NCBI GenBank assembly: GCA_951406725.2
Contig: OX597828.1
Location: 74,462,001 to 74,526,000, forward strand
Source of the DNA: Octopus vulgaris
Lineage: Eukaryota
Reading direction: 5' to 3'
Length of the DNA: 64,000 nucleotides
Part shown: piece after piece, positions 2,253-48,071 of the stretch
Layout of the letters: each line of letters begins with the position of its first letter
How positions within the stretch are numbered: position 1 is the first letter of the stretch
Position numbers and translations under genes: made by a program
Notes under the pieces: model-generated
Told to the model about the DNA's origin: nothing
The model's input: the letters and a program-made list of their open reading frames with translations, nothing else
Database searches by the model: none

Positions 2253-3674
2253 ACATCAATTTATACCCATTTTTTTCCTCAATTTTTGATGTTAGTTGAT
2301 ATAATTTCAAATTTTTTTATATCAATTGTTATCAATTTAAAAAAAAAAATTACTATCAATTGATGTAAATTCCCCCCCCCCCCCAATATTTTTAATTTAT
2401 TATAAAAAGTACATTGAGTGATAGACTGGCACCGTCCTTAGAGAATCAGAGTAAAATGCTTTGCAGTCTTTGTTGTGTTCAGATGACACCAAAGTCAACT
2501 TAGCCTTTTATCCTCCTTGAACCAACACAATTTAACTGAAACTTTCCCTCAAGTTTGTGCCTTTTTTTTTTTGTTTATGTTAGTAATTATTATTATTATT
2601 ATTATTATTATTTAGGTTTAAATTCCATTGATGCCAGCTTTTACTTACATCCTTTCAGGGTTGATGAAACAAGCACCAGTTGAACATGGGGAGGAGGAGG
2701 GGGCGATCTATTTACCTACCGCTTATCCTGAGCTTGCTGGCCATGTGTCAAAATTTGAAAGCATTATTATTATTATTATATTTGCTGTGGAATATATCAG
2801 ATGTTATTAAGAACACCAGTTATATTTTGACTGGTGTTCTTTGGTTGTTTTGGCCCTCATGGGGCAATATTTTGCTTTCCAAAAGAAATGCTCGTTTAAA
2901 TTTTTAAAAAATTACTTGTAAAAGATGTCAACACTTTCCCTTTAAGAGTGATAACTTCCTCCTACAGCCAAAGACTTTCCTCCTCATCTCTTATTCGCTC
3001 CACTAAATGACTGATGACTGGAGAGAGAACAACCGGAGTATTATTGACCCACTAGAAGCTGACAGTATTGTAGAAAAAATCTGCAATGTCACCGGTTGTG
3101 GCACATCAAGCATTCAGAGGGTCAATGGGGACAGCAACAAGAGCTACAACAATGAAAAGTACTGACATAAAACAGGGAAATGGTGAGTGACAAAAACATG
3201 ACCAGTGGAAAAATGAACAATGCCAACAGCAGTATAGAAAGCTTTCCATATGTGGCCAGCACCAAAAAATAGAAATGTTTCCATCCCTGGAAAATTAAAG
3301 TAGTAAATTGGCTCCAGTATATAAAAAAAGAAATTAATTTTGAGTGGGGCCAGGCAGCAGCAGTATTGAAGTCGAAGCAGAACAAGTGGACAGAACGGTC
3401 CTTTACAGGGGTCTCACTCGTGCGCAGATGAGCCAATCCTGCCACAATCATTAAAGTAGGGTCTAAAAGACATTATGGAAGATGTGGCCCACATGTGAAG
3501 AGGAAGGCAGTTTAACAACATGGAGACACCCTTCTAAAGTGAGGACCTCACTTGGTAACCTTCAATAATGGCGTGAAGGGTGTGTCCTGTAGCAGATGTA
3601 CCTCTCTAAGAGAACTACTTTCCTTATTATAGGCATAAAGCCTTGTATAGGAAAGAATGGAGCTGAGCGAAGAT

Positions 3675-6444
3675 TTAACAAAATTCCTTTATTTTATTTT
3701 CAACATATGTTTCGAAGTCTGCAAAATCCCTAATTCCGAATGAATAAGGAGTCCATTATGCAGCTTTCTCATCAGGAAAATCCAGGAACTTCTTTTGACA
3801 ACAAAATGCACAAGTTTTTAGATGACTACTCTCGAGGAGCCCATAGCGATAATGATAGTGTCTATTTATAGGGGGTGACGTCAGATTGGTTGAATGTAGG
3901 AGAAATTGGCAGTTACTAGAGTTCAAGGGTTCAATCGAGGTTGGAGGAGGAAGGTAAAAGAGTATTAAGGTGAGGGAATGCATTCCGTTTGACTGGTGTT
4001 TATATTTGATTTATTTTATGAATGAGTGCTCGTATGTGTGGGTGTGTATAATTGTCTTAATGTGTGTGTAGAAGGCTGACAGAAAATTAAGTCGGGAGGT
4101 GAAAGGACTGTGTCTGTGTGTTCGAATGTGTCAACTTAAGAGGGAGTGGGCAGAGAGGGCCCACAATAGTAGTGACAAGAGACGAGGGGACTACTGGAAT
4201 TGGTAGCAGCTCTTAGAAATTATGAGAAAGTCTTATAAACTAAAGGGATGAGATATCATAAATTAATTTTGTAGGAAATCCAGGGGTTGTCTATATTAGA
4301 CTTCATTGGTATGAGTGAAAGGTATGCTTTTTCCAGTGTAAACATCTGAAAGATCTCTCGACAATCGAGTTTATTACGTGGCCTCGGGCAAACAGAATAT
4401 GAAAAAGTTCAGAATTACATAGGGCACAGATTTTTCTGGCCTTATCAACCGGTAAGGACACCGACAATATTGACCATTCCAGCGTAAAAGATGAATTTGT
4501 GTTCTTCAAACGCCAGACTAATTTGCTTAGCCCCGTGGTGTGCTGTTTACTCTTATCTCTGAACGTGGAAAAATGGTTGGAGATCCATGTGGCTAATTTA
4601 GAAGAGGTTGCGCCAATATAGAGGTAGACATCGGATCCAGTAGAAATTTTGCACTGGTAAGTGGTGTTTCTAATTTTGGAGTTATTTGATAAGAACCTTA
4701 ATCTATTGGGATTAGTTTCCAATACTAATACAGCGTTCTTATTTCTATGATGGGTGTAAAAATTACTGCTGGATTTGGGCACGATACTATTCATCCTATT
4801 TTCATTACTATTTAAGGCAATATCACCTGCACATTCCCTGTTTCTGGGAATGCTGTGATTGTTATTGTCCGTAAAACTACTGTTAAGAACGCTGCTACTA
4901 TTATTGTTGAGACCCCCCCCCCCTTTTGTTGTCCTGGCCAGTGCTCTTATCCTTATTACTATTGCTAACGCCAATGCTGCTATGAAGGCTGCTAATATCT
5001 GTGCTATTTCTATTATTATTATTACTGTATGTTACGTTGGAATTTGACAGGGCGGTGTCTCTGCTCATGGGTGATGAGACCTTATTTAGCAGCTTATTGT
5101 TATGGGAGGCAATTATCTGTGAGAGATTTTTAGTATTTGAGAAAGCAATCCTTACTTTGTGCGAATTAATAGTGGAGTAATATCTCGAATTTCTGGGAAA
5201 ATTCCTGGCAATGGCTTGGCAAAACTGTAAAGGGAGGTTAGATCCGATTTGTTTCCCAAAAGGAATCACAAACCAGATATAGTTTTTTCTGTTCTTGGAC
5301 TGGCTCGGAGTGTTAACCCTTACATTAAGGGGGGCATCTCTGTATTGAAGAATGGGTTTTGGCTTTTGATGGTCTCCCTTGGTCCGCAACTTATGTTTTT
5401 TGTGTCAACATTGCTAGAGCTACCATCACTACTTATATTATTTATATTATTGTAAGTTAACTTATCCTGATGAGCAAATACTGGTTTCGGATGGGCCGGG
5501 TCGATATATGCTACCTTTTCCCTATAACTGGCTTTTGACAGGGTGGCATTATAGAATTCCGCTTTTTGCTTAAAAATGTCGATGTTGGCAGATAAATTTG
5601 ATAATCTTAAAGAAATATTTTTAACTAAATTATCTGTGATAGTTTTTGCGTGGTTACTGAAAATACTGACATATTTTAGGTTTGTAGAAGGTTTATGGTA
5701 GGGGCAGTAAGAATTGCTATGCAGATTTAGGGCAACATCTAAGAAATTGGCCTTAGTCAGTTCGTTGTCGAAAACTATGTTCATGCCCATCCTACTAAAG
5801 AACCTAGCTAATCTATTTTTAGTTTTCTGTATCCTTCTGTTCGGAGCATTCTGTAGGTAAAAAAGACAATCGTCTCGATATAGACCGCCGCAGATGTCTG
5901 GGAATTAGTCGGCTAATTCATATAGAATATAGATTCCGACCAAATCTGCTATCGGAGCTTCCCGTTGGCACATCGAACGCGTTGGGAGTATCCTTACAGA
6001 CCCATAACTTCAAACTGTATAAAGGATTTTCTAGCTACTAGAATTATATTAATTTCCTCCCTTGTGAGGCCTGCCTTATTATGCGCGTGCCATAGGGCCT
6101 TATTGAGTACACTAGGGTTTATCGAGGGGTAGAAATCAGCAATATCGAACTGAATGAACTTAGTGCTGTTTTTATTAGAAAACGGAAGAAAACCAATTTA
6201 CGACTTGCGTGGAGTTCGCCCAAAGGTTAAGCTTAAGCTTATTGACTAAACTAGGAATGTATTTGTCTAAAATGTACTTACTGATGGAACCGATGTCTGA
6301 ACTAGAAGGGCATATGAGCCTTAATGCTGGATTGGTGTGGAAATTTGGTTTGTGGTCCTTAACGATGAATCTAGGTTGTTTTGGGTTAAGTGGTTGTGTT
6401 CTCATTTGAATTCCATAATTAACCATTATTTTCTTAATCTCCAA
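3675..6444 (-). mobile_element. Penelope-like element (Naiad-type) 1: 5'-truncated, disrupted RT + GIY-YIG and 3' pLTR
   Basis: KDHKPNF..NPALRLICPSSSDIG, GGLYRDDCL (~5870-5890), PYHKP..NLKYVS, IWFVIPFGKQ, YIGATS, LSKLVWRLK, CALCNSE. Contains frameshifts, a stop and an Asn-rich linker. Confidence 0.85.
3697..3780 (-). ncRNA. Minimal type I hammerhead ribozyme in the 3' pseudo-LTR of a Penelope-like element
   Basis: Minus strand reads TTTTC-CTGATGA-G...CTGCA(loop)TGCAG...C-GAAA-C-ATAT-G-T-T-GAAAA. The catalytic core is intact, stem I is TTTTC/GAAAA, stem III is palindromic (ACATATGT), and the cleavage triplet is GUU. Confidence 0.75.
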
Positions 6445-6941
6445 GCTCTCTGTAAATGTCTTCCTGAGATGTCTTCCTTTTTCTGAGGTCAGGTTTCATA
6501 TTTCTTTTTCTCATAAATCGTGAAAGATCCAGTGCTGTATAATTCTCGTAGACTTTTTACAGATGCATTACTGTCGAGTTTTTGAGTGGGTTTTTTTTTT
6601 TCAAAAATTCAATTTTGTCTTGAACAATATCTGGTGTTTGTATTTAGCAGGAATAGTATTTTCTTTATTCATTGGAACCATGGCTGAAGCTAAAAGCAAA
6701 CAGGTTATAATAATAAATAGAACAAAACAAATAAAAAAAATAATAGTCTACCTTGTAAGTACTGTTGACCATATAAGTATCAGCAAGTAGCGCCACCTAA
6801 CATCAGTGACAGATTGGAGAAACCTGGAAAACTTATGATTAGGTCAGCTGAAATTTGTGTTAGATTAGCGATTGACATGTTTTGAAATTTTTAAGTATTG
6901 GTGAGTGAATAAGTTGTGGTGCTGGTACAGGCAAACCAGCA

Positions 6942-7050
6942 ACTTACTTTACACTGAAGGACCACAAGCCAACTTTCAATAAAACACCCGAATGTAAACT
7001 CATTAATCTTGCCAAAAGTCATTTTGGTATTGTAATTAAAACAGTCTTAT
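6942..7050 (+). mobile_element. Short Naiad-type PLE RT fragment
   Basis: Hand translation gives TYFTLKDHKPTFNKTPECKLINLAKSHFG. Confidence 0.6.
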
Positions 7051-7220
7051 AGTAAATGGCTGGGCAACGGAATCTTTTGGAGTGACAGTTTCTGTGTTGT
7101 CTGTTGAAGAGTTCCTCATATTTTGTTTGGTTTTTCCTATATATGTAGCATCTCTGATTGGAAGTTGCTCTGCTTTGTTTATAACATACTGTAGATGGCT
7201 GGTGAAGGATGTGTAGTGGA
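7051..7220 (-). mobile_element. PLE GIY-YIG endonuclease fragment
   Basis: ATYIGKTKQNMRN...DSVAQPF (YIG motif). Confidence 0.45.
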
Positions 7221-7759
7221 TGTGTGTGTGTATTAATAAATACATAAATTGTTTCATGATTAAAAAGGGATTTATTTACATGGATTATAAATACACTACA
7301 TACAATTGTTAGCAAATGCTACGCATTGCTTGTATAGAGCACATAATAAAGATGAATATGTTTGTGTGTGTGTGTGTGTGTGCGGGAATCATTCGAAACA
7401 GTAGCCTGTAGGCATTTTCTCTGTCGTCTCCAAAACGCGGGGTGTCAGCTCCGATTGTCTTTTTTTCTCTGTTTTTCCCTTGTATTTATAATATTTGAAA
7501 CAGTTAGAAAGATAGACATATTGCAACAGATAGACATACTAAGTAGGTCAATGCGTGTCCAGTTGAACTTCGCCTGACATGGCTGAGGTCGCAGGTCAAA
7601 GGGAGATGTCAATCACTTTTTGACAGAACAAAGGATCTTTAAATTTCGCGCCTATACATGCATTGGTATTTGACGACCGATGATTCTTGGATTCGATTTC
7701 GAATCCAAGCTTAGAGAAGGAAGTGCTAACTCCTACAGATGTAAGAAAAAGGTATAAGC

Positions 7760-8522
7760 ACCTGCTGCAACACACAGTGGATGATTGTACTTGACCTCTG
7801 GCTTTCTTTTCTTGCCAACTGCAACCAGCTGAGCGACGATACAGCACTTATGATCATGAGCTCCTAGTGGTCTTTCTATCGGTTCGTCATTTCCAGCATC
7901 AACTCGAAGGTCAAGATTTTGTGATCTATACTGGTCATAAGCCTCTTGCGTTTGCCCTGTCATCTAAAACGGACAAACTCTCGCCTTGTGCTTTCCGTCA
8001 CTTGGAATTTATTTCACAATTTACCAGTGACATTCATCATATACCTGGGAAAGAGAACGTTCCGGCTGACGCTCTTTCTTGCCTTCCAGTCTGTTCTCTT
8101 TCGTCTCCTGCTGCGATGACTTAACTGCCATTTCGCAGGAGCAACCACCTTTGGCGACGTTAGACTTAATTTTGCCTAAGTTCTCCTGTTGCCAGTTTGC
8201 CTATCTTCCGCTTCCGTCAGCTGAAGGTACCATTCTTTGTGATACTTCCACTGCACTCCTTATCACATCCTGGCATCGCTGCTACCCTTAGACTTATCAC
8301 TGCTCGTTTTTTTTGGCCGAATATGTCACATTATTACCTCTTGGACACGCACTTGCTCCAAGTGCCAACGTTCCATGATTCAGCGGCACATTCGTGCCCC
8401 ACTTGGACACTTTCCTCTTATGAAGGCCCATTTTCGACACGTCCGCATTGATCTGGTTGGACTATGGCCTGTGAGTCGCGGGTTCTCTTATCTTTTAACC
8501 TGTGTCAATTGCTTTTCCCATT
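7760..8522 (+). mobile_element. Ty3/Gypsy pol fragment (RNase H to integrase start), degenerate
   Basis: PLAFFSCQLQPAERRYSTYDHELL, HHIPGKENVPADALS, HSLSHPGIAAT..LITARFFWP, FRHVRIDLVG. Confidence 0.85.
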
Positions 8523-8524
8523 GC

Positions 8525-9270
8525 TTCATGGAACACTATTTAATTCCAGGCCGTAAAACAGTTCTCTTGAGGGTCCCCCACAATTGTTCGATGGTCTGTG
8601 TGTGAATTAATGCGTTTGCCGGATCGACAAAGTTCTGACTATGGTTAATTTGTATAACCTGAATTTTGAAGAGAACTATAAGCACCCCAACAGTCACAGT
8701 AAATAATGGAACCTTGACGGGTGTAGCATCTGATTAACGGGATAAGAGTTGAAGCATTGCGTCTTTCCCCTTCCCCACACTCTGATGACAGAGATATCAA
8801 AAATTTCCTTTTCGCTTCCCGTTCGATACCCCCGAAAAGCCAAATAGTCTTTACAAGCCTACCTCGGTTGTATTTTCTTCGAACTAAAACTGTCTCACAA
8901 ATTTCCTCTGCGATCCCTGGCCTCCAATTTGTGCTTGGCAATTTTCAACCCAATGAAGGCAAACTTCAAAGCAGAAAGATTGCCAATCAACAGATGTGGC
9001 AAGCGTTATATCTAAATTTTCCATAACAAATTTATGTGACCAATCTTCTGTTAGGAAATGATTGATGAACAAAAGAACTTTCCATGGGTGTAAACGGCTT
9101 CGCTCCAAAAAGGTGTTCTTGAAGATAGACACTGAAAACCTGCATTCTGTTTCCCTTTGTCTCCGACACCGAACCATCATCCTACATGGAAACATATGAG
9201 TTCCATTTCGAACAACACAGGGGGCATTGCATGTTGGGCAATTCACAAATGCAGGAACAACTCCATGTTA
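8525..9270 (-). mobile_element. Merlin (IS1595/ISXO2-like) transposase fragment
   Basis: CPTCNAPC Zn-ribbon, SIFKNTFLERSRL, RRKYNRGRLVKTIWLFGGIERE, GSIIYCDCWGAY. Confidence 0.85.
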
Positions 9271-9589
9271 GCCACAGTCAACCCTACGACGATCTGATCA
9301 GAGTTGGGGTGACTATCCCTCGCTCCCTGGCCTCATTCAACCCTGTATACCACGTGTTGTGTTGTGTTAAATAGTCCGAATTTAACTCACTGTATAAAAA
9401 CCTTTAGCTCAGTTTAGCGTAGAAAACATTTCCTTCCTCAGGGTCCGTTTCTTCAGGTAAAATCCAGTAATCAGGTAAAATCCACTACATGGTGACGGTT
9501 CAGTTGGTAAAGACTCAGTTGTCGTTTGTTTTATCTACTCTGCATTGCGAGCATTACAAAAGGATGCATCTTCGTCAAAGCAGTTGCTC

Positions 9590-9941: not shown

Positions 9942-12232
9942 CTAAGAGAAGAGAATATGGAAGAGTTCAGAGTTGCAAATGTTACAAAATCTCTTGCCCT
10001 TATCGAAAGGAAAGGATACGGACAGTATGAACCAATCTAACTTAAAATCTTTATTGTTGTCTTTAAGATGATGAAGATGCCAAACCGATTTACTTAGCCC
10101 TGTATTATGGCGTTTTTTGCTATCCCTAAACGATGAATAATGGTTTGAAATTCTTTTGGATAACTGGGAAGTAGACATCGGTACCGAAAGAAATTTTACA
10201 CTGGTATATAGAATTCTTGATCTTTGAATTATTAGACAAAAATTTAATTCTGTTGGGGTTGTCCTCAGAGATCGAACCAAGTTTTTATTGCTGTGATTAT
10301 TATTATTGTTAATACAATTAATATTATTATTAATAATAATACCGTCATTATTCTTCTTATTATTATATAAGGGGTTGGAATTAACGAGATTAATGTAACT
10401 CCCAGATAAAGAACCTTTATTTAGCAGATTGGTATTGTGAGAGATTCTTAGTGTTGGAGAAAGCGACTCTATAGAATTTTTTGGAAAGTTCCTAGCAACC
10501 GCTTTGCGGAACTGCAATGGAAGGTTCGATTTGATTTGTTTTCCAAATGGAATTACGAACCAGATACTTTTCCTAGTGACTTTTAAATTGTAAGTGGTAT
10601 TATCTATAAAGGTAGGGGAAAAGTTTCTTGGGTGGAAATTTGAGGTTAAGAATTTATATTGTGTATTGCGCTGCTTACACTATTAGAATTAAAATCACTC
10701 TTACTATTACAAGTAGATATAGGACTAGATTGAGTAGAATCAGTGTATGACACTTTCTCTTTATAACCAGCTTTTATCAAGGCGGCGTTATGGAAGTCTG
10801 CCTTTTTGTTAAAAATGTCAACATTGGCAGATAATTTAGATAATCTAAGTGAAATGTTTTTAAATAAATTATTAGTAATTGTCCTAGCATGATTACTGTA
10901 AAGACTAATATATTTGAGATTTGTGGAAGGTTTATGGTATGGAAAGTACGGGTTGTTTTGTAAATTGAGAAGCTGGCTTTAGTTAACTCATCGTCAAAAA
11001 TGATGTGAAAGCCCATGCTACTAAAAAAACCTAATCTATTCTTAGTCTTCTGTATTTTTTGATTTGAAATGTTTTGGAGGTAAAGCAGACAATCGTCGTG
11101 ATAAAGACCTCCACTGATGTCTGGGAACTGGTCGGCCATTTCAGAAAGAAGATATATTCCGACCAAATCGGCTATCGGAGCGCTATCTCTACTTCCCATT
11201 AATACATCAAACGTATTTGGAGTATTCTTCCGGACCCACAACTTATTGAACTTGATGAATGATTTCCTAGCAGCCAGTACCACATTAATTTCTTCCCTAG
11301 AGAGACCTACTTTATTGTGTGTATGTCAGAGTGCCTTATTAAGTATAATAGGGTTGATTGATGAATAGAAGCTAGATATATCAAACTGAATAAATTTAGT
11401 GTTGGCCTTATTTGGAAAGTTCCTAGTAACTGCTTTGCGGAACTGCAATGGAAGGTTCGATTTAATTTGTTTTCCAAATGGAATTACGAACCAGATACTT
11501 TTCCTAGTGACTTTTAAATTGTAAGTGGTATTATCTATAAAGGTAGGGGAAAAATTTCTTGGGTGGAAATTTATCTAATATATATTTACTAAGAGTACCA
11601 ATGTCTGAGCTGGAAGGGCATATAAGTTGTAATACTGGGTTAGTATGGAAGTTCTGCTTGTGGTCTTTTAAAATGAACCTGGCTTGTCTGGGGTTCAATG
11701 GTTCTGTCTTCATTTGTAATCCGTAAGTTTCCATAATCTGTTTAGCTTCTAGGTTGGCCTGCCTGAGAGTATTCCTACTGGTGGTCTTGTAATTTTTATG
11801 GATCTCCTTTTCGAGCAGTTCCAAATAATGGCTTTTGGTAAGCTTATAGATGTTACTGGTTTTATCCGATTGAACAAGGACGTAATCTAAGTTATTGATA
11901 TCTCTAGAGACGTTATTAAGATATCTAATGTGCTTATTCCTGAAGGGTGACCGATGAAATTTTATATTCTTTACGATGGTCCAAAGATCATCCTCGAATT
12001 GCTTCAATCTAGGGTTAGATGGAGGGGTACCCTTCGATTTAAATAACTTTTTTATATTCATTAGAGATGTCATTACTGGTCTGTTGTAAGTCCTTATTGT
12101 CGTGGAAGAAGGTAAGCCATCTGATGCGGATGATAAATGCATTAGTCTTATTGACAAGTTGTTTAAGGAAAGCTTTCTTTGTTGGAATAGGAATATCCTT
12201 AAGAGGGGCGTTGATATTGAACAACTCCATTT
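9942..12232 (-). mobile_element. Penelope-like element (Naiad-type) 2: near-complete but frameshifted ORF
   Basis: N-terminus LKDIPIPTKK..LVNKTNAFIIRIRWLTFF, SDKTSNIY, KDHKQNF, FDVLMGSRDSA, GGLYHDD, LSKSVWHL, CNICNSE. Confidence 0.85.
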
Positions 12233-12422
12233 ATTCATATATACATACATATATATATATATATATATATTCGGTTAAGTAATTGAGATTCAAGTGGATT
12301 CTAAAGAATTCACATGAATATGGTCCTTAACTAGGATGCACCGGCAATCTATATGGTGTTAACCATACGATAAGTGGGGTGATTACAAATAGGAAAAAAG
12401 CAACAAGAATGGATTAAAATCT

Positions 12423-12504
12423 CGGTACGATCGTTTCGTACGAGGACATCTTTAATAAGCTACAAAAAATGCAGTGAATGCAGATGGCTCGTACTCGTCA
12501 GCCG
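12423..12504 (-). ncRNA. Minimal type I hammerhead ribozyme in a PLE pseudo-LTR
   Basis: Minus strand reads CGG-CTGACGA-GTACGAG(loop)CTCGTAC-GAAA-C-GATC-G-T-A-CCG. Perfect 7-bp stem II, palindromic stem III (ACGATCGT), GUA cleavage triplet. Confidence 0.8.
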
Positions 12505-12579
12505 GAAAAATATCAGAGAATTCCCAAACATCAAAAGGGGTAGATACAAAAGAAGTTGTAAGATTAACTGCATTGAAGA

Positions 12580-13030
12580 AAGTTCGATTCATGGAGATCC
12601 GATGAAAGGTTTTAAACTTACAGAATTTGTGCATGTCTACATATAGCTCATATTGAATTTTTAATCAAGTTGTGTGAAGAAATTTTCGGATACAGTCATG
12701 CAAAATTTCTGAAAATCCGAGTAAGAGGCAAAGTGACTGCCATATCATGTAGAGGAAAGTCTGAGTAAAAGCAAAGTGCCTGTCATATCGTGTAGAGGAA
12801 CAGATTGTTATTGAAATTTACAAGAATCGCAGATAAGTTCGATTCTTGGAGATCCGATGAAAAGTCTTGAATTTACAGAATATGTGCATGTCCTTATAGT
12901 TCATAATCCAGTTTTGTGAAGAGATTTAGGGTACAATCATGCGAAAATATCAGGGAATCCGAATGAGAAGCAAAATGACAGTCTTATATTGTAGAGGTGC
13001 AGGTTGTTAATGATTTTTACAAGAATCACA
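12580..13030. repeat. Diverged direct duplication (~255-bp period)
   Basis: AAGTTCGATTC..GGAGATCCGATGAAA..TTACAGAAT.TGTGCATGTC begins at ~12580 and again at ~12835. Confidence 0.6.
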
Positions 13031-13199
13031 GAGAGAGGAGGAAGGAGGTAGAATTTAATCAGTTACTGCTATTAAAGCTTTTTTCCTATATATATATATA
13101 TATATATATATATCCTATTTTTCCTAATCCTACAGTTATTATTGTTTGTCCTAAATCTATTGGTGTTGTTCTAAATAGTTCCACCTGTATTTGAAGGAT

Positions 13200-14445: not shown

Positions 14446-14469
14446 TTTCTTCATATACACACACACACA

Positions 14470-15124
14470 TACTGCAGCCTACCAGGTCAAAAGTCATTGA
14501 TCACCTTCTTCATCTTCTTCCAGTGCACTGAAACCATCAAAGTCCTCTTCTTCAGTGTTTGAATCTCGTCACTTCAGCCTCTTCGTTGTCGCTCTCACTC
14601 AGGGTGCAGAGCCACTTTAAATGCCCGGTCCACGCTGATGTCCAGTGGCTCCGAATACTTAGTGGTGCCCCCAGGAATCACAGCTGGAATTGAGTTTGTA
14701 CTCTTGATGGCAGCTTTCACTGAATCTGTTATATGGGCCCTCATGCTGTCCATAACGAGCAATGCTTGTTTTTGTGTGAAAAATCCCCCCAGGTCGCTTG
14801 GCGTGGCACTCTCTGAGCCAATCGTTATTAGGCTCTCCATCATCCAACCTTTCTTATTGACTTTCACCACGATTTCTTTTGGGAATTTTTCCTTTGGCAT
14901 TGTCAGCCGCTTAAAGGTCCCCATCGGTGGAATCTTTAGTCCGGATGCTGTGCAGCTCAGAACACAGGTAAAATGCGTTCTCTCATGGCCACTTGTTTTC
15001 AGTGTGAGGGACGAGTGACCTTTTTATTAACTGTCCAAGTGAGAGGCAGGTCAAATGTCAAAGGTACTTCATCCATATTTATATTCTCCGCTATCTTTGA
15101 GTGAATGTGCGAAAGTTAACAAGT
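14470..15124 (-). mobile_element. pogo/Tigger-like DDE transposase fragment
   Basis: VKVNKKGWM, ALLVMDSMRAHITDSVK, IPGGTTKYSEPLDISVDRAFK. Confidence 0.85.
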
Positions 15125-20295: not shown

Positions 20296-20384
20296 AAGAT
20301 TGAAAGTAGACGGTGATATGAGTCAGGAACTTTTCTTCTTTATCTATTTGAATTGAAAACCCATCTGAGGTTGTCCTGTTCAAC

Positions 20385-28146: not shown

Positions 28147-28171
28147 TATATATATACAGGTAATATATATA

Positions 28172-30035: not shown

Positions 30036-30039
30036 GAAG

Positions 30040-31720: not shown

Positions 31721-31724
31721 ATCT

Positions 31725-32733: not shown

Positions 32734-32734
32734 T

Positions 32735-37615: not shown

Positions 37616-37619
37616 GGAA

Positions 37620-39197
37620 TCACACTGGTTTATCTCTTTGTGTGAAAAAACAATCATTGATGCACTTTTCTTGGAAGTTTCCAGTGCTTTCCAGCAAATT
37701 CTCCCAAAGGTCAGTTTTCTCGTGTCTGCACCACCGTCACATGAATTTGCATGGATACGAGTCAATCATAGAACGGTGTGTACCCCACCGATGCTTGTTA
37801 GCCTGTTTCAAACACGCCCAAGTACTTTCTATTTGTTGGGTATGTGTGTTATCTATGGAGTTACCAAACTTGACGCTGTGGTTCACCGGTCTGTCGAAAA
37901 TTGTATCCCTCTATCTCTGGAATATGTGAATATGCCCTCCACTGGTCACTAAATATTGTGGGTCCTGGGAGAAATCGACTGGTGTATGCACTCCTCCCTT
38001 ATGTTTCAATCTGCCATAAAGAAAAACATGTTAAATTAACAGAAATGAGGCGAAAAATGACTTTTCATTACAAAAATTTTCCCCTGCACTTCTGTTGAGA
38101 AGCCCTGCCCTAGGGTTTTCTTATACGAATTACAATCTCCTGCACCACATACACTCTCAGATATGAGTGAACCATGGACCTTGCAGCTTCGTTTATTGCC
38201 CGTTTAACACTGGCCCAAGTACTTTCTATTTGTTGGGTATGTGTGTTATCTATGGAGTTACCAAACTTGACGCTGTGGTTCACCGGTCTGGAATATGTGA
38301 ATATGCCCTCCACAGGTCACTAAATATTGTGGTTCCTGGGAGAAATCGACTGGTGTATGCATTCCTCCCTTATGTTTCAATCTGCCATAAAGAAAAAAAA
38401 CATGTCTGGTCTCATGACACACTTTGAAAACGCAGTTCATGTAGCACTTAGATTCTCAATTTCAATATTAATTGCACTTTGCTTCTTCCCGGCTGCTTCT
38501 GCAAAGTTTAATTTCTGGGTTGCTACTTTTTGGATTTTTCCTTCTTTACCTGTTACAAACACAGGCATATCCATCAACGCATTAGTCGGCGAGTTCTCTT
38601 CACTAAGTGACAACTCCATAATGTTGAAAAACAGTTTCAGCACAAAGCCAGACACAAACATAATTACAGTTTAACAATAATAATTCCCCTCCAGGGGGGA
38701 ATTAATAACAATTTGCTTTACAAAAGGCAACAAACAGATCGTATCAACAACATAAAATAGAGCAGCTTACGTTCACAACAATAGCAATTCAAAGAAACGT
38801 TTGCAGAATAACCGAGTCATCCAACTAACGTGCAACGAAATGGTTCATATTTGGTTGTCTTAGTTTGAAGAGACTATATGGCTTGTTACTATGGAGACAC
38901 ACCAATACGTCTGGTTATTGATTGGCTAAAATTACCCAAAATGTGCAAACATTTACAAAATCTGTGAGACCCTTATATTCTGAGCAGAGGAAACACACTG
39001 GTTTATCTCTTTGTGTGAAAAAATAATCATTGGTGCACTTTTCTTGGAAGTTTCCAGTGCTTTCCAGCAATTTCTCCCAAAGGTCAGTTTTCTCGTGTCT
39101 GCACCACCGTCACATGAATTTGCAAGGATACGAGTCAATCATAGAACGGTGTGTACCCCACCGATGCTTGTTAGCCTGTTTCAAACACGCCCAAGTA
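37620..39197 (-). repeat. Merlin-derived units plus block B (higher-order repeat copy)
   Basis: Anchors at 37820 and 38217, block B from 38401, Merlin C-terminal segment at ~38995-39197. Confidence 0.85.
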
Positions 39198-40077
39198 TTA
39201 CAATTTGTGATGCAAATGCAAAGTACACAAGAATTATGCAACAGGTGTGTGATACATTTGAAAGCAGGGTACATAGATGCAAGCAGGATATTACAGTTTG
39301 TGATGCAAATGCAAAGTACACAAGAATTATGCAACAGGTGTGTAATACATTTGAAAGCAGGGTACATAGATGCAAGCAGGATATTAGTTTGTGATGCAAA
39401 TGCAAAGTACACAAGAATTATGCAACAGGTGTGTAATACATTTGAAAGCAGGGTACATAGATGCAAGCAGGATATTACAGTTTGTGATGCAAATGCAAAG
39501 TACACAAGAATTATGCAACAGGTGTGTAATACATTTGAAAGCAGGGTACATAGATGCAAGCAGGATATTACAGTTTGTGATGCAAATGCAAAGTACACAA
39601 GAATTATGCAACAGGTGTGTAATACATTTGAAAGCAGGGTACATAGATGCAAGCAGGATATTAGTTTGTGATGCAAATGCAAAGTACACAAGAATTATGC
39701 AACAGGTGTGTAATACATTTGAAAGCAGGGTACATAGATGCAAGCAGGATATTAGTTTGTGATGCAAATGCAAAGTACACAAGAATTATGCAACAGGTGT
39801 GTAATACATTTGAAAGCAGGGTACATAGATGCAAGCAGGATATTAGTTTGTGATGCAAATGCAAAGTACACAAGAATTATGCAACAGGTGTGTAATACAT
39901 TTGAAAGCAGGGTACATAGATGCAAGCAGGATATTAGTTTGTGATGCAAATGCAAAGTACACAAGAATTATGCAACAGGTGTGTAATACATTTGCAAGCA
40001 GGATATTAGTTTGTGATGCAAATGCAAAGTACACAAGAATTATGCAACAGGTGTATAATACATTTGCAAGCAGGATA
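39197..40077. repeat. 91/93-bp tandem satellite (~10 units)
   Basis: ATTA(CA)GTTTGTGATGCAAATGCAAAGTACACAAGAATTATGCAACAGG... near-identical units, the last two shortened. Confidence 0.95.
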
Positions 40078-41448
40078 CTTTCTCTCTCTTACCTCATGCT
40101 CTCTTTCTCTCTCCCTCCCTTTCTCTATCTCTATCTCAGCCCTCATTTCTCTCTCTCTCCATTCTCTTACTCTATATATTTTTCTATATCACTCCGTCAC
40201 TCTTCTTTCTCTCTCTTATCTCATGCTCTCTTTCTCTCTTCCCCCTTTTCTCTCTCTCTCAGCCCTCCTTTCTCTCTGTCTCCATTCCCTTACTCTATAT
40301 ATTTTTCTATATCACTCCGTCACTCTACTTTCTCTCTCTTACCTCATGCTCTCTTTCTCTCTCCCTCCGTTTCTCTCTCTCTCTCTCTCTCAGCCCTCAT
40401 TTCTCTCTCTCTCTCCATTCCCCTACTCTATATATTTTTCTATATCACTCCGTCACTCTACTTTCTCTCTCTTACCTCATGCTCTCTTTCTCTCTCCCTC
40501 CCTTTCTCTCTCTCTCTCTCTCAGCCCTCCTTTCTCTCTCTCTCCATTCCCTTACTCTATATATTTTTCTATATCACTCCGTCACTCTACTTTCTCTCTC
40601 TTACCTCATGCTCTCTTTCTCTCTCCCTCCCTTTCTCTCTCTCTCTCTCTCTCTCTCAGCCCTCATTTCTCTCTCTCTCCGTTCCCTTACTCTATATATT
40701 TTTCTATATCACTCCGTCACTCTACTTTCTCTCTCTTACCTCATGCTCTCTTTCTCTCTCCCTCCCTTCCTCTCTCTCTCTCTCAGCCCTCATTTCTCTC
40801 TCTCTCAGCCCTCATTTCTCTCTCTCTCCATTCCCTTACTCTATATATTTTTCTATATCACTCCGTCACTCTACTTTCTCTCTCTTACCTCATGCTCTCT
40901 TTCTCTCTCCCTCCCTTCTTCTCTCTCTCTCTCAGCCCTCCTTTCTCTCTCTCTCCATTCCCTTACTCTATATATTTTTCTATAACACTCCGTCACTCTT
41001 CTTCCTCTCTCTTACCTCATGCTCTCTTTCTCTCTCCCTCCCTTCCTCTCTCTCTCTCTCTCTCTCAGCCCTCATTTCTCTCTCTCCATTCCCTTACTCT
41101 GTATATTTTTCTATATGACTCCGTCACTCTTCTTCCTCTCTCTTACCTCATGCTCTCTTTCTCTCTCCCTCCCTTCCTCTCTCTCTCTCTCTCTCAGCCC
41201 TCATTTCTCTCTCTCCATTCCCTTACTCTGTATATTTTTCTATATGACTCCGTCACTCTTCTTTCTCTCTCTTACCTCATGCTCTCTTTCTCTCTTCCTC
41301 TCTCTCTCTCTCAGCCTTCCTTTCTCTCTCTCCCCCTCCTTTACTCTATATATTTTTCTATATCACTCCGTCACTCTACTTTCTCTCTCTTACCTCATGC
41401 TCTCTTTCTCTCTCCCTCCCTTCCTCTCTCTCTCTCTCAGCCCTCATT
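40078..41448. repeat. CT-rich ~120-bp minisatellite (~11 units)
   Basis: Recurring TATATCACTCCGTCACTCT..TTACCTCATGCTCTC..CTCAGCCCTC with variable (CT)n. Confidence 0.9.
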
Positions 41449-41945
41449 TCGCAATAATATCATGGCGATGACAGTACTGCTGCCCTGGGAGAAGTTCTCG
41501 CGTTACCTCAACCCACTTTGGGTTACATGTAAAGGTAATGAATAAATCGGGTCGCCCATAATGCCGAACGTAAGTCATAACGTCTTGTGTTTGCTCGTGC
41601 ATGTACTGTGGGCCCCCTGTATAGGTTGAGGGGAGAATGCACATTTTGCCGATATTGTGTCATTCCTGATGCCTTCACGCAAATGGATGTAGGAGTCTGA
41701 GCGCAGCTGCTTCTGATTCAATTTGATGAAGCACAGTCTCTCGGACTCCATCTTTGCAGCCATGTCAACTGCAAACTGGTGAAACAGTTCCCGTGATCTG
41801 TGCAGGGGGTTGAAATCATTATACCTTGTCATGAAGCGGTATGAGTAAAAAGCCATACATGAAACAGTTTTAGATGTTGCAGCAGTGGGCTCGTTTGCTT
41901 TGTGGTGAGGAATGCCGAAATGGTACCCGTCTTCTCCTTACGGAA
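41449..41945 (-). mobile_element. Helitron Rep/helicase fragment
   Basis: FYSYRFMTR..ELFHQFAVDMAAKMESERL..NQKQLR and ILPSTYTGGPQYM..YVRHYGRPDLFITFTCNPKW. Confidence 0.9.
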
Positions 41946-43686
41946 AAAGAAAAGGAAACTGCAGAGCGTCATTATGACCGATGCGTCTCATTAATACGCT
42001 GAAGACCACTGTCGCGGCTTTGAAGAACTATGTCTCACTGATTGTGCCACACAGTGGGACTGAACCCAGGACCATGTGTTTGGAACGTAGTTTGTTACCA
42101 CACAGCCACACCTGCCCATGTGTGTGTATGGGTAGATATATTATGCATGTATATATGTGTATATATATGTGTACATATTACATGTACATCTATATATATA
42201 TATACATCTACACATAAAATACAAAGTTATATCTTGATATCGCTAGTGATAACAATACTTAAAATATATAACAGACTGGAATTGTAGGCCCGTCTCTTGC
42301 AATTTCGATCAATTGGATCTTGTCCTCCCTCTTGTATAGAATTGGACGGCTGCAGCGAAATTCATTTTTGAACTTTCTTCTATCAAAGGCATTTAAACAA
42401 AAATGCTTCCGTAAAGACGGTGAAAATATTGTCAATTTCCCCAAACAGGGACACGATTCAATTTTGAAACAATAACCAAAGCCCCTTCTCCGAAAGGGGG
42501 AGGGTTACGGTTTACAATTATTTAACAAATGCAACACAACAACGTTTCCCTGACGAGGAACCAACAAGCGTGATTACAATAGTCAATCAGTAATAATAAT
42601 AAAAACAAACCTTTTTAATTTATCCCCATTTATGTGAAACCACTTGTTCAAGTCGTTGATGCAATTTTATACGAATTGCTAATACACACACACACATAAT
42701 AAGGGTGAAAAATTGAATATTAATTTGATTAATATGAATTGAAAACCAGTGGTGTAGCATATAAGACCATAGCGGATCTTCCTCTAGCAAAAAGGATGAC
42801 CAGTATTAATGGCTCATCCCTGTTATATAAATTACTTTCACTTTAATTGTTGCACACTTGCAAAGAGAAAGTAGGAGAAACTGTGGTGGTAATGGAAGGA
42901 GTGAAGCACTTGAAATGAAAGAGGCAAATCGTTAAATATTGAGTTTTCTCGAATTTTTGCTTAATTGGGGGTCAAATTGAAAAAACTTTACATGCCATGA
43001 CCCAATTGAAGAAATTCTATATTGTAGAACTGTATTAAAAAGAAACATGGGAACAGACAGAGAAAATCTGCCTTTTATCATAAGAGTCCACGTGTATAAA
43101 ATATTAAGAACATGTGGATACATGCGAAGAAAATAAAACAATATCCACATCAGTTTAGTTATTTCGTGTTGCATATATATTCATAATTACCAATAACTGT
43201 CATGTTCCCAGACAATTCTTAAAGAACAAAATAAAAACTTTGATATACAGTGTCAGTTATGAGGGGACGATGTCATTTACCCGCCTGTTTCAGCCTGGCT
43301 TTTTTTGTCTATGTCATGAAGGAAGGTTGTGTGGGTGAATGATATCGTATACCAATATCAAAGGATTTCTGTTATTACACGAATTATGATTTTAGGATTG
43401 CAGCTGAAAATTGAACGTGGGTTCCCAAACGGTGCATTACCACATATTGAAGTTTCGTAAGATATAGAGGTCTGGCGAAAATATCAAAATTTTATTTTGT
43501 AAATGAAAGTTACAAACTGAAATTCTAAATATACAATGCTTCATTTATTGAGTAAAGATCTCGATATCTAATAATTTGCTATAGCTTAAAAGGCTTACTT
43601 GTTACCCACACTGTTTACAATTTTCAAACGAACGTTAAGTACGTCACAATATAGCTGTCTACGTCACAGTAACACTATGCAGCTGC

Positions 43687-45497
43687 GAAAATTGTATCCC
43701 TCTATCTCTGGAATATGTGAATATGCCCTCCACAGGTCACTAAATATTGTGGTTCCTGGGAGATATCGACTGGTGTATGCATTCCTCCCTTATGTTTCAA
43801 TCTGCCATAAAGAAAAAACATGTCTGGTCTCGTGACACACTTTGAAAACGCACTGTTCATGTAGCACTTAGATTCTCAATTTCAATATTAATTGCACTTT
43901 GCTTCTTCTCGGCTGCTTCTGCAAAGTTTAATTTCTGGGTTGCTACTTTTTGGATTTTTCCTTCTTCACCTGTTACAAACACAGACATATCCATTAACGC
44001 ATTAGTTGGCGAGTTCTCTTCACTAAGTGACAACTCCATAATGTTGAAAAACAGTTTCAGCACAACGCCAGACACAAACATAATTACAGTTTAACAATAA
44101 TAATTCCCCTCCAGGGGGGAATTAATAACAATTTGCTTTACAAAAGGCAACAAACAGATCGTATCAACAACATAAAATAGAGCAGCTTATGTTCACAACA
44201 ATAGCAATCCAAAGAAACGTTTGCAGAATAACCGAATAATCCAACTAACGTGCAACGAAATGGTTCATATTTGGTTGTCTTAGTTTGAAGAGACTATATG
44301 GCTTGTTACTATGGAGACAGACACCAATACGTCTGGTTATTGATTGGCTAAAATTACCCAAAATGTGCAAACATTTACAAAATCTGTGAGACCCTTATAT
44401 TCTGAGCAGAGGAAACACACTGGTTTATCTCTTTGTGTGAAAAAATAATCATTGGTGCACTTTTCTTGGAAGTTTTCAGTGCTTTCCAGCAAATTCTCCC
44501 AAAGGTCAGTTTTCTCGTGTCTGCACCACCGTCACATGAATTTGCAAGGATACAAGTCAATCATAGAACGGTGTGTACCCCACCGATGCTTGTTAGCCTG
44601 TTTCAAACACGCCCAAGTACTTTCTATTTGTTGGGTATGTGTGTTATCTATGGAGTTACCAAACTTGACGCTGTGGTTCACCGGTCTGTCGAAAATTGTA
44701 TCCCTCTATCTCTGGAATATGTGAATATGCCCTCCACAGGTCACTAAATATTGTGGGTCCTGGGAGATATCGACTGGTGTATGCACTCCTCCCTTATGTT
44801 TCAATCTGTCATAAAGAAAAACATGTTAAATTAACAGAAATGAGGCGAAAAATGACTTTTCATTACAAAAATTTTGCCCTGCACTTCTGTTGAGAAGCCC
44901 TGCCCTAGGGTTTTCTTATACGAATTACAATCTCCTGCACCACATACACTCTCAGATATGAGTGAACCATGGACCTTGCAGCTTCGTTTATTGCCCGTTT
45001 AACACTGGCCCAAGTACTTTCTATTTGTTGGGTATGTGTGTTATCTATGGAGTTACCAAACTTGACGCTGTGGTTCACCGGTCTGTCGAAAATTGTATCC
45101 CTCTATCTCTGGAATATGTGAATATGCCCTCCACAGGTCACTAAATATTGTGGTTCCTGGGAGATATCGACTGGTGTATGCATTCCTCCCTTATGTTTCA
45201 ATCTGCCATAAAGAAAAAACATATCTGGTCTCGTGACACACTTTGAAAACGCACTGTTCATGTAGCACTTAGATTCTCAATTTCAATATCAATTGCACTT
45301 TCCTTCTTCCTGGCTGCTTCTGCAAAGTTTAATTTCTGGGTTGCTACTTTTTGGATTCTTCCTTCTTCACCTGTTACAAACACAGACATATCCATCAACG
45401 CATTAGTTGGCGAGTTCTCTTCACTAAGTGACAACTCCATAATGTTGAAAAACAGTTTCAGCACAAAGCCAGACACAAACATAATTACAGTTTAACA
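43687..45497 (-). repeat. Merlin-derived units plus two block B copies (higher-order repeat)
   Basis: Anchors at 44615 and 45012, block B at 43819 and 45220. Confidence 0.85.
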
Positions 45498-45504
45498 AAT
45501 AGAG

Positions 45505-45648
45505 AATACCAAACTCATTCCCTATGGATACCGTATTTATTACAACGCGTGGCTTGTAAACGTATCTAACGAGCGAAAGCGTGTTAGATACGTTTACAAG
45601 CCACTCGTTGTAATAAATACGGTATCCATAGGGAATGAGTTTGGTATT
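45505..45648. repeat. 144-bp near-perfect hairpin
   Basis: 66-bp arms (45505-45570 and 45583-45648) with one mismatch, closed by GAGC-GAAA-GCGT. Confidence 0.95.
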
Positions 45649-46723
45649 TTATTTATTACACACGAATAAACGACCATATTTTTATTAACCCAATAACAAT
45701 TCTTCACATCGTGTTGAAGCGCGCATGAATACAGCTTGATTTCACGTCAGTGATGTCACAATGTGTAACTGTAAAAGATGTCATGCCGCAGGAAGATAGT
45801 CCGACTTTATAGCACTAAGTTTTCAGGTGAAATGACTGATAACGGATGACTGTTTAACATTTTGTTAACATAAGTTCACGTTCAAGAAAAACGAGATAAA
45901 GAAAATACACAGAATGTCACAAAGTTCACTTTTGTCGATAGATTCAATTGGACGCGTGTCGCCATGAAAGCTAACAATTGTTTAACATCATTGTTTGTTT
46001 TCCAAAGAGCGTTTTTATTTTGATTACCTTGAACGAATTTGTCTATTCCAGAATGATCATACCTCGGTTGAAATTCAAGTTCATTATTGCTCTCATCAAA
46101 GAAATCGTCACGTAGAAGTTCGTTGTACACCTCATCAGGGATGTTAGATCTAGGGTTCGATGACAATCCACTCGTCGATGACACTGTTTCAGGTACCTTT
46201 GTTAACCTGTATCCAGCAACATGTCGAACTTGGCCAGTATTGATCTTCACTTTGAACATTCTGTATGTTCCAAGAGGTTGAACAACGGATAACACTCTTC
46301 CCCCATCTTTACCATCAATCTTAACAAAATCATTCACCTTGATATCGACAACAGTAGCCATCTTGTTGATAGATCTACCTGCACTGCAAGAGTATCAACG
46401 AGCAGATGAAATATGTTGTGATTTTTTTGGCAACAAAAAATTGAATTACCACCAGAAATGTTTATATTTTATGTGTATATGACTTCAAGTGATATCTGGT
46501 ATAAAAAAGATAGTATGTTTGTTTAATTACATGGCAACATTCTACCTGCTCATGAAAGTAATGAATGAAGTTTAGTTGTAACTTATGAATGACAAAAGTA
46601 GTGCCGTCACCGTGGCCTCGGGTCATCACCCTGGATTGACCAATCAGAAGCAGCGCTCGCAGTATCTGACATATGTTAGATACCAAAAATATCTCCAAGT
46701 ATTCTCACTCACGTGTGTAATAA
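45505..46723 (-). mobile_element. Crypton-like (tyrosine recombinase) element, internally deleted
   Basis: ORF 45882-46361 ends with IDKFVQGNQNKNALWKTNNDVKQLLAF, resembling the region N-terminal to the YR domain in CryptonA/KCTD1/ZMYM-type proteins. Bounded by 13-bp inverted TTTATTACACACG / CGTGTGTAATAAA, with the long hairpin adjacent. Confidence 0.55.
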
Positions 46724-48071
46724 AACATTGAGACGAGACGTGGTTTGACACAAACCACATCAAAGAGACCCAAAAATATGGAGGTGAAGTGTGGCTGGCA
46801 GCAATAATGCAATTAAAATAACGATGATGATGCTTTCAGATTTTGGTATCAGGTCAGCAGTATGGGAGGGGTGGGGTTGATTTGTGGTTAAGGGGAGGCA
46901 ATTATTGATTTATCAAGGAATTTAAATGCTTAACAGTGGCTCATATATTCTTAACAGAATACAGTAAAATACCACTGTTAAATTAAGTTATGCAGTCTTT
47001 GACTGGTCCTTACTTTTATCAACCCTGAACAGGTGAAAGGTAAAGTCAACCTCGGCATCATTTGAACTCAAAATCTAATGCTGCTTTCTATGCATTCTGT
47101 CTGGTGCAGTAACAATTCCTCTGGGTCACCACAAAAAGCAAAGAGACCAGAAATGCTTTAAAAAATTCTCTCTCTTGTCCACATTCTGTAAAGACTCTAT
47201 ATAACTGAACTTTCAATAATAGACACTTGTTATAATCTTGGCCAAACATTTACTTTGATGTTGTCCGTCCCTGTGAAACTTGTTGATTTGATCGTTTAAA
47301 CATTTGTCTGAATTCTACTTTGTAATTTGAAACTGTTAAAATCCCTTTGTTTTATATGTATTTGTACCACTGCCTAACAAAAAAATTGTTGGAACTAATT
47401 TGCTATGTATATGAATAAATTGATTTAAAAACTACATGCTTTTCAAATTCAGGTGCATTTTCAAACCCCACAATTCTGTAATGCAAAGATTTTTTTCTGG
47501 CTAAACTGCCCTTGCTCAACCTGAACAAAACAGAACTTGCTTGCACCACAGGTAAACATGTATTCTCTAGATATAATTGAAATTAGTTAATTCTCAACTC
47601 CTCCTCGTCTGTATTGGTACCCATAGTTCTTCCGCCATAACCATAGATAAATTGGGGACCACTAATTAATTTCTACTCAGCAATTATATATACCTTAAAA
47701 CATGTACATCTGCCCCAGTCCAATAACTTTTTCCATTTCCTGCACACAACACTCATTACTTCACATCAACTTTTCACTCTCATATGCGTATGTACCTACC
47801 TTTCGTTCTATATTAATTTACACGTGACTGTGCATTCGTGTGTGTGTGTGTGTAGACCTAGGCGTGCAAAGATGTATGGCAGGATAAATATGCACATGCA
47901 TTTATTTACACACCACCCTCCTAGATTCTAGCTCATCCCCCTGACCTCCCCACCTCTTTTTGTCATCTGATTACAAGTATATTTATTTTACTTTTGATAC
48001 TAACCATAACGGTTTAGGCATTTGCACTCACATAAAAGTATAAAAAGAATATTATGGAAAAATATATTGTG

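What the first reader, a model, noticed from the sequence alone, without database searches (positions are those of the whole stretch)
3650..46730. Candidate flamenco-like uni-strand piRNA cluster immediately downstream of DONSON
Seen: about 43 kb of tightly packed, truncated fragments from at least 8 unrelated TE groups (PLE, Gypsy, Merlin, piggyBac, pogo, LINE/Tx1, Helitron, Crypton-like) plus a viral NS1 fragment. By my count roughly 20 coding fragments are on the - strand and only 3 on + (6942, 7760, 31725). The bias also covers DNA transposons, which normally insert in random orientation. The SINEs and long (TA)n tracts that fill 46.7-64 kb are nearly absent here, and the boundary is sharp. 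Established: strand-biased antisense TE/EVE graveyards are the signature of uni-strand piRNA clusters such as Drosophila flamenco and the mosquito EVE-rich clusters. Inference: a + strand precursor, possibly DONSON read-through or a promoter near 2-3.6 kb, would give antisense piRNAs. I am not aware of such a locus being described in cephalopods.
Basis: partly seen in the sequence, partly recalled or inferred. Interest (0 to 1): 0.85.

Follow-up and report, generated by a model that had tools for sequence, protein, structure and literature searches.

The report
Octopus transposon trap downstream of DONSON
Just behind the octopus DONSON gene lies a 43-kb patchwork of transposon and virus-like fragments that almost all face the opposite way and are transcribed at least in the first part; it is likely a piRNA cluster, a genetic memory of invaders, of a kind we found no report of in cephalopods.

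Summary
Observation confirmed; interpretation largely supported, but no small RNA could be tested. Window 3645-46727 starts 1.9 kb after the DONSON stop (+). It holds 20 independent orientable insertions from 10 groups, 17 on - and 3 on + (p=0.003; strict 15:3, p=0.008). Local direct duplications inflate the raw count. High-copy repeats cover 0.4% of it, against 1.7-22% in 15 of 15 random windows. In those windows neighbouring elements share a strand in only 16 of 34 pairs. Two spliced-RNA runs of two organisms hold contigs across the mosaic's junctions and skip the DONSON intron; DNA runs bridge junctions too (first 16.8 kb only, strand unknown). Both other NS1-like loci examined (2 of 6) also sit in one-strand mosaics. 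Best reading: a uni-strand piRNA cluster, probably made by DONSON read-through, like mosquito read-through clusters and mammalian piC-DoGs rather than Gypsy-specific flamenco. It is a new member of a known kind; six literature searches found no cephalopod report.

The parts
116..313 (+). DONSON penultimate coding exon (8 more exons upstream of the window, from -17907)
   Evidence: tblastn of P0001; spliced joint in X1 and X17; GT..AG ends
1459..1785 (+). DONSON last coding exon with stop codon
1786..3644 (+). Presumed DONSON 3' UTR / linker; no + AATAAA (ATTAAA at 3294, 3450); 2704-3644 is transcribed and joined to PLE-1 in RNA contigs
   Evidence: X1 record 2, X17 record 17
3645..6444 (-). 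Penelope-like element 1 (RT + GIY-YIG)
   Evidence: dispersed copies 88-94%; tblastn
6460..7050 (+). Penelope-like fragment in sense; holds + AATAAA at 6712, 6730, 6978
   Evidence: 97% to a C18 copy, oriented by that copy's RT ORF
7209..7744 (.). Dispersed 535-bp repeat, not oriented
7763..8602 (+). Gypsy RNase H-integrase fragment in sense
   Evidence: PF17917, PF17921; copies 80-92%
8645..9272 (-). Merlin (IS1595-type) transposase fragment 1; partial copy at 29251-29453
   Evidence: PF12762
9538..9804 (-). piggyBac transposase fragment
   Evidence: PF13843
9868..12228 (-). Penelope-like element 2 (about 72% nt to PLE-1)
12229..13079 (.). Young high-copy repeat (96-98% to other copies), not oriented
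13096..14475 (-). Penelope-like element 3
   Evidence: copies 92-95%
14476..15124 (-). pogo/Tigger DDE fragment; duplicated with the PLE-3 end at 28172-29156 (99%)
   Evidence: PF03184
15121..16145 (-). LINE fragment (ORF1 end + endonuclease)
   Evidence: copies 92-96%; RVT_1 in copy L025
16146..16804 (-). Parvovirus NS1-like SF3 helicase fragment (putative endogenous viral element)
   Evidence: PF01057 above cut-off; relatives 64-72%; weak PDB matches to parvoviral Rep/NS1 and papillomavirus E1
16781..18969 (-). Merlin fragment 2 with a 398-bp internal unit; locally re-copied at 19819-20296, 24066-26691, 37616-39208, 43686-45498
   Evidence: PF12762
19265..20348 (-). Dispersed repeat with an unnamed ORF (tentative orientation), interrupted by a Merlin-2 piece without Merlin ends
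20357..20720 (-). Divergent third Merlin piece (tentative; oriented via a C29 copy)
20950..22936 (-). Gypsy gag-protease-RT fragment
   Evidence: PF23055, PF00078; copies 81-94%
23126..23210 (+). Promoter-like motif cluster (NRF1-ETS-NRF1-YY1 type) in sequence with no copy found; possible internal + promoter (lead only)
   Evidence: only such cluster in 264 kb, motifs recalled and chosen after seeing the sequence
23840..27668 (-). Penelope-like element 4, split by the Merlin-2 tandem array (24066-26691)
27669..28152 (.). MITE-like element with terminal inverted repeats
29461..30077 (-). Tc1-type transposase fragment
   Evidence: PF13358 weak; copies 81-92%
30191..32736 (+). 5' part of a LINE in sense (78-86% to copies), cut by the Tx1-like LINE
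32731..37622 (-). Near full-length Tx1-like LINE (EN-RT-zf), 92-93% to many copies, with a 127-bp tandem
39204..41450 (.). 91-bp and CT-rich 127-135-bp tandem arrays
41447..41987 (-). Helitron helicase fragment
   Evidence: PF14214
42044..43684 (.). Two non-coding dispersed repeats; includes the block's only high-copy SINE head (42044-42116, on -)
45490..46727 (-). Crypton (tyrosine recombinase) 5' fragment with a hairpin end; right edge of the block

Best explanation
The block is a transcribed one-strand archive of transposon and NS1-like fragments, and is likely a uni-strand piRNA cluster whose + strand precursor would arise by read-through from DONSON. Shown: the anatomy, the strand bias, the SINE exclusion, and RNA across junctions in 2.7-16.8 kb. 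Inferred steps: (1) Pol II runs past a weak DONSON 3' end (no + AATAAA from 1785 to 6712). (2) Because the fragments lie on -, the transcript is antisense to 10 groups of elements and would be cut into primary piRNAs that guide PIWI proteins against the dispersed copies (mostly 81-98% identical). (3) Antisense insertions are kept because they add silencing, sense ones are mostly lost because they truncate the precursor or add nothing, and SINEs/(TA)n are purged or excluded. (4) The locus also grows by local direct duplication. An internal + promoter near 23.1 kb may drive the second half.
For: 17:3 independent insertions, p=0.0026; strict 15:3, p=0.0075; DNA-type elements alone 8:0, p=0.008. 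Background neighbours concordant in 16 of 34 pairs. Lowest SINE and simple-repeat content against 15 of 15 random windows. About 6 background high-copy repeat segments with >=90% nearest-neighbour identity are expected per 43 kb, 0 seen, so youth alone does not explain the gap; the spliced DONSON joint stands in X1 and X17 only, not in X16/X19. Depth in bin 1-560 equals the exon contig alone (9.91 vs 9.92; 95.5 vs 95.5), so these runs are not DNA-covered there. X1 contigs with 0-2 differences bridge unique/PLE-1, Gypsy/Merlin and LINE/NS1; one X17 contig (organism B) spans 2704-6164, another reproduces the pogo-Merlin junction of 28.5-29.5 kb. Prediction test: at the two best other NS1-like loci, 16 of 16 other TE-domain ORFs (about 9 elements) lie on the NS1 strand and none opposite (147 ORFs scanned). 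Precedent (passages read): read-through clusters with antisense EVEs in mosquitoes (10.1101/2022.08.22.504762), piC-DoGs and uni-strand slug clusters (PMC11615739), mollusc clusters enriched in young DNA transposons (PMC6128900). Sequence-only strand-bias calls were later validated by small RNA in Drosophila (PMC10643416).
Against: No small RNA was seen. Contigs give no strand, start or end, and no listed contig bridges 1820-2704, so read-through is not shown. Only 1-16780 was laid. X1 may come from the assembly individual. Three sense pieces persist (4.0 kb against 30.7 kb), one with + AATAAA at 6712-6978. One random window was also all one strand (4 of 4, R13). The window was picked by eye from about 65,000 possible ones, so p=0.003 alone is not genome-wide significant. 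The tblastn library held the block's own proteins and favours it in family counts; like-for-like Pfam gives 5 groups vs at most 3. The two-fold + AATAAA deficit (23 vs 46) follows from base skew and is no extra evidence.
Confidence: 0.68

Rival explanations
1. A long + strand read-through or lncRNA with no piRNA role (or an endo-siRNA/nuclear silencing role): selection removes sense insertions only because they terminate or mis-splice the transcript.
For: Explains antisense bias and transcription equally well; the sense PLE carries three + AATAAA; no small RNA seen.
Against: Does not explain why groups scarce in the random windows (Merlin, piggyBac, Crypton, Helitron, NS1: none detected in 600 kb) pile up while common SINEs are absent, nor the NS1-tagged sister loci.
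Confidence: 0.16
2. A neutral TE nest whose single orientation is inherited from a few founders by local direct duplication and templated patching.
For: All 119 internal matches are direct; a Merlin piece sits inside another repeat with short microhomology and no Merlin ends; a 4-of-4 one-strand nest occurs in a random window.
Against: After de-duplication 15-17 unrelated insertions remain on one strand, each with its own dispersed family; junction-spanning RNA in two organisms; two sister loci.
Confidence: 0.09
3. One giant composite mobile element (Helitron with captured pieces, or a Terminon-like PLE unit; the latter recalled, not read).
For: Co-oriented PLEs, an SF3 helicase and a Helitron piece occur together.
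Against: No second copy of any multi-element junction outside the locus among the scored candidates; pieces match different contigs one by one; the C9 and C29 mosaics have other contents and order.
Confidence: 0.04
4. Mis-assembly of repeats.
For: Near-identical tandem arrays at 24-26.7 and 37.6-45.5 kb were not checked with reads.
Against: DNA contigs of X19 (organism C) bridge 8346-8864 and 16012-16729, X16 bridges 16104-16780, and RNA contigs bridge further junctions; no N in 264 kb.
Confidence: 0.03

Closest known systems
Mosquito read-through core piRNA clusters (10.1101/2022.08.22.504762, passages read)
   Same: Start right after a co-oriented gene; one strand; trap non-retroviral viral elements in antisense; several such loci per genome.
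   Different: There shown by small RNA, chromatin and knockdown; here piRNAs and read-through are untested. The viral piece here is DNA-virus NS1-like, and most cargo is PLEs and DNA transposons.
Mammalian piC-DoGs (PMC11615739, passages read)
   Same: Densely packed antisense TE fragments right behind a spliced host gene; exon and downstream RNA without intron cover.
   Different: Mammalian cargo is LINE-1/ERV in gonocytes; tissue here unknown; no bridging transcript shown.
Drosophila flamenco and flam-like clusters (PMC10643416, passages read)
   Same: Long, strand-biased, internally duplicated TE graveyard.
   Different: Bias there is driven by Gypsy, clusters are hundreds of kb, and flamenco has its own promoter; here 43 kb, 10 groups, Gypsy 1 antisense and 1 sense.
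Mollusc piRNA clusters: slug (PMC11615739), pond snail and oyster (PMC6128900), passages read
   Same: Slug clusters are mostly uni-strand with antisense TE fragments; snail clusters are enriched in young Gypsy and DNA transposons unlike the genome average.
   Different: Defined by small RNA; a link to an upstream gene or to viral pieces was not in the passages read; no cephalopod cluster in them.

Membership tests
Uni-strand piRNA cluster | Produces 24-32 nt, 1U-biased, PIWI-bound RNAs from one strand | not testable with these tools
   No small-RNA run was listed; all four laid runs are contigs
Uni-strand piRNA cluster | Dense TE fragments with strong one-strand bias | tested here: met
   17:3 (15:3 strict); 30.7 kb vs 4.0 kb; background 16 of 34 concordant
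Uni-strand piRNA cluster | Transcribed as a long precursor | tested here: inconclusive
   Junction-spanning contigs in two spliced-RNA runs over 2.7-16.8 kb; continuity beyond single contigs not shown
Uni-strand piRNA cluster | Precursor antisense to the fragments | not testable with these tools
   Contigs carry no strand
Uni-strand piRNA cluster | Fragments match families dispersed in the same genome | tested here: met
   Copies on many contigs, mostly 81-98%
Read-through cluster / piC-DoG | Begins within a few kb of a co-oriented expressed gene | tested here: met
   DONSON stop 1785, block from 3645; DONSON spliced in X1 and X17
Read-through cluster / piC-DoG | One transcript joins the last exon to the cluster | tested here: inconclusive
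   Listed contigs end at 1820 and restart at 2704/2860, where repeats also break the DNA contigs
Read-through cluster / piC-DoG | No promoter marks at the cluster start; output depends on the host gene | not testable with these tools
   Only a motif scan: none at 1.7-3.7 kb, one cluster at 23.1 kb
flamenco-like cluster (strict) | Antisense bias driven by Gypsy LTR elements | tested here: not met
   Two Gypsy pieces, one on each strand
Parvovirus-derived endogenous viral element | SF3 helicase of NS1/Rep type | tested here: met
   PF01057; PDB matches weak, and shared with papillomavirus E1
Parvovirus-derived endogenous viral element | HUH endonuclease, capsid gene, or placement in a Parvoviridae tree | not tested
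   Only the helicase part was compared
Single composite mobile element | Copies of the whole or of multi-element junctions elsewhere | tested here: not met
   None among the best 32-40 candidates scored per search

The most novel reading that the evidence does not exclude
Octopus has a family of uni-strand, gene-read-through piRNA clusters that trap DNA-virus (parvovirus-like NS1) fragments together with PLEs and DNA transposons: a mosquito-style heritable antiviral and anti-transposon memory in a mollusc. The DONSON locus is shared and transcribed in at least two octopus species, and NS1-like inserts mark the other members.
Probability: 0.35. Interest if true: 0.78.

Novelty: new member of a known kind. 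Interest (0 to 1): 0.6.

Why it matters
Octopus genomes are rich in transposons, yet our searches found no described piRNA source locus in any cephalopod. This gives exact coordinates, unique junctions for mapping, a candidate host promoter and two sister loci, so small-RNA data can test it directly. If true, read-through cluster biogenesis and viral-fragment trapping extend to a mollusc, and the clusters list which elements the octopus actively silences.

Tried and rejected
Run search: no RNA holder listed on record; 20 of 24 rows hold part of the stretch; small unlaid shares were not used. Depth steps in X17 (about 59 up to 6.2 kb, about 10 or less in most bins after 6.7 kb, near the + AATAAA pair) are contig figures and were not counted as evidence; one X17 bin (11761-12320) had no cover. 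AATAAA strand deficit: explained by base skew ((A/T)^4 about 0.5, own arithmetic). Rfam: 0 matches in 64 kb. C15:58.56-58.585 Mb, where Merlin and piggyBac pieces also neighbour: 3+/2-, not a one-strand mosaic. Atlas on the Crypton ORF: best 0.85, uninformative; settled. 22937-23839: only a 220-bp old repeat matched elsewhere. Five non-coding repeats and the tandem arrays (8.5 kb unassigned) could not be oriented and were left out of counts. One library ORF with a stop was dropped. Earlier findings: none by place or words. Literature searches without a cephalopod cluster report, listings only: 'piRNA cluster'+octopus (12 of 15 listed), piRNA+cephalopod (30 of 51), piRNA+DONSON (20 of 25), octopus+EVE+parvovir (0), piRNA+Octopus vulgaris+small RNA (5 of 5), 'piRNA cluster' with squid terms (20 of 2,427 listed, none with the phrase). 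Subscription journals and supplements were not seen.
Full report
Setting. The window is G000:C15:74462001-74526000. The ORF at 1435-1782 matches DONSON in the PDB (E=1.6e-5) and a 613-aa protein labelled Octopus vulgaris on a contig of the same length as C15. tblastn places 10 DONSON exons on + from -17907 to the stop at 1785.

Anatomy. Pfam was run on 450 of 498 stop-to-stop ORFs of at least 50 aa; the 48 beyond 58.5 kb were not scanned. Inside 3645-46727, 20 TE or viral-domain ORFs lie on - and 2 on +; two weak + hits on a tandem repeat were set aside. Nine DNA searches of the own genome with parts of the block gave boundaries and showed that most pieces have dispersed relatives, matched one by one on different contigs; no multi-element junction recurred outside the locus among the candidates scored. 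Fetched copies fixed orientation. PLEs were confirmed by tblastn from a GIY-YIG PLE of a random window and Atlas hits at 0.95; Crypton by a 91%-identical relative with DUF3504 and phage-integrase domains. The NS1-like ORF has SF3-helicase relatives at 64-72%; its viral family rests on the helicase only.

Counting. All 119 self-matches within the block are direct, so raw counts overstate independence. De-duplicated, - carries PLE x4, Merlin x3 (one tentative), piggyBac, pogo, Tc1, LINE x2, Gypsy, Helitron, Crypton, NS1 and one unnamed ORF (tentative): 17. + carries a PLE piece, a Gypsy piece and a LINE 5' part: 3. Two-sided p=0.0026; 15:3 gives 0.0075; the 8 DNA-type elements are all on - (p=0.008). 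By length 30.7 kb is on -, 4.0 kb on +, 8.5 kb unassigned.

Background. Fifteen seeded random 40-kb windows were drawn. High-copy repeats cover 0.004 of the block against 0.017-0.218; simple repeats 5.8/kb against 17-128; A-T skew -0.084 against -0.073 to +0.057. About 18 high-copy segments are expected per 43 kb, 6 of them at >=90% to a neighbour; one old one is seen. Pfam on 276 background ORFs seeded a tblastn library. Random windows held 0-9 elements of at most 3 groups, coding fraction 0-0.38, against 0.46 and 10 groups in the block; the library favours the block, and like-for-like Pfam gives 5 groups vs at most 3. Neighbouring background elements share a strand in 16 of 34 pairs, which supports a 50:50 null. 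Against the reading: R13 was 4 of 4 on one strand, and the window was chosen by eye.

Transcription and assembly. Four contig runs were laid on 1-16780. The GT..AG joint of the last DONSON intron stands in X1 and X17, not in X16 or X19, and depth in the first bin equals the exon contig alone; X1 and X17 thus behave as RNA without DNA cover there. X1 contigs with 0-2 differences bridge the unique linker to PLE-1 (2860-3713), Gypsy to Merlin (8253-8864) and LINE to NS1 (16104-16780). In organism B one contig spans 2704-6164, one 8358-8807, and record 20 joins pogo to Merlin with the 94-letter gap of window 29156-29251 (compare). DNA contigs of X16 and X19 bridge some of the same junctions, so mis-assembly is unlikely for this part. 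Not shown: strand, ends, a bridge over 1820-2704, anything else beyond 16.8 kb, and independence of X1 from the assembly individual.

A prediction test. The NS1-like protein matches 6 other places. The two best were fetched on that ground alone. Of 147 ORFs scanned (of 169), 18 carry TE or viral domains, all on +, the NS1 strand; the one - hit is a repeat artefact. C9 has no high-copy repeat in 19 kb; C29 has 0.088 and many direct duplications. About 9 elements besides NS1 are co-oriented (9:0, p=0.004). A third region chosen for Merlin/piggyBac neighbours was mixed.

Mechanism. Most likely (0.68) a uni-strand piRNA cluster. Read-through from DONSON is the favoured source: the gene is co-oriented and 1.9 kb away, there is no + AATAAA before 6712 (though ATTAAA at 3294 and 3450), and no promoter-motif cluster was seen at the block's start. 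Processing into piRNAs, selection for antisense cargo and purging of SINEs are inferred from known systems. A motif cluster at 23126-23205 may be an internal + promoter; the motifs were recalled and chosen afterwards. The main rival (0.16) is a long + transcript without piRNA output.

Comparison. It works like mosquito read-through clusters and mammalian piC-DoGs; uni-strand clusters with antisense TE fragments are known in a slug, and snail and oyster clusters are enriched in young elements. It fails the Gypsy criterion of flamenco-like clusters. All four papers were read as passages only. Membership stays open until piRNAs are mapped. Six searches (listings only) showed no cephalopod cluster.

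Verdict. A real, unusual, transcribed one-strand TE archive; probably a new member of a known kind, with sister loci; interest 0.6.

Noticed in passing
G000:C9:9506000-9525000 (L105, L106): 19 kb free of high-copy repeats, with mariner, Gypsy, Myb/SANT, NS1-like, three LINE and Crypton pieces all on +; a second candidate uni-strand cluster (precursor predicted on -). Its limits and any host gene were not reached.
   Followed up: partly
G000:C29:19144500-19163500 (L103, L104): Gypsy gag, Merlin, Tc1 and NS1-like pieces all on +, with many direct local duplications; third candidate cluster, less SINE-free.
   Followed up: partly
G000:C12:68510652 and 68541620: A Crypton copy and NS1-like pieces 31 kb apart, both in + orientation; possible further cluster. 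NS1-like places on C5, C1 and C14 were not examined.
   Followed up: no
window 23126-23210: NRF1/ETS/YY1-type motif cluster followed by a short + ORF and a splice-acceptor-like tract near 23540; a captured or internal promoter?
   Followed up: partly
window 46728-47430: Sequence right of the block looks like a 3' UTR end (TGTA motifs, AATAAA at 47414); it may be the precursor's end or an older DONSON 3' end split off by the insertions. By eye only.
   Followed up: no
window 19819-20296: An internal Merlin piece sits inside another repeat with only a few letters of microhomology and no transposon ends: a templated local insertion.
   Followed up: partly
window 45490-45660: Near-perfect 170-bp palindrome at the end of the Crypton piece, present in other copies too.
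   Followed up: no
L080-L083 (G000:C2:112086171-112126170): Random window with 4 of 4 elements on one strand and few SINEs; chance or a small cluster.
   Followed up: no
G000:C2:152629000-152654000: At least six co-oriented copies of the unnamed ORF repeat (window 19265-20348) within 25 kb.
   Followed up: no
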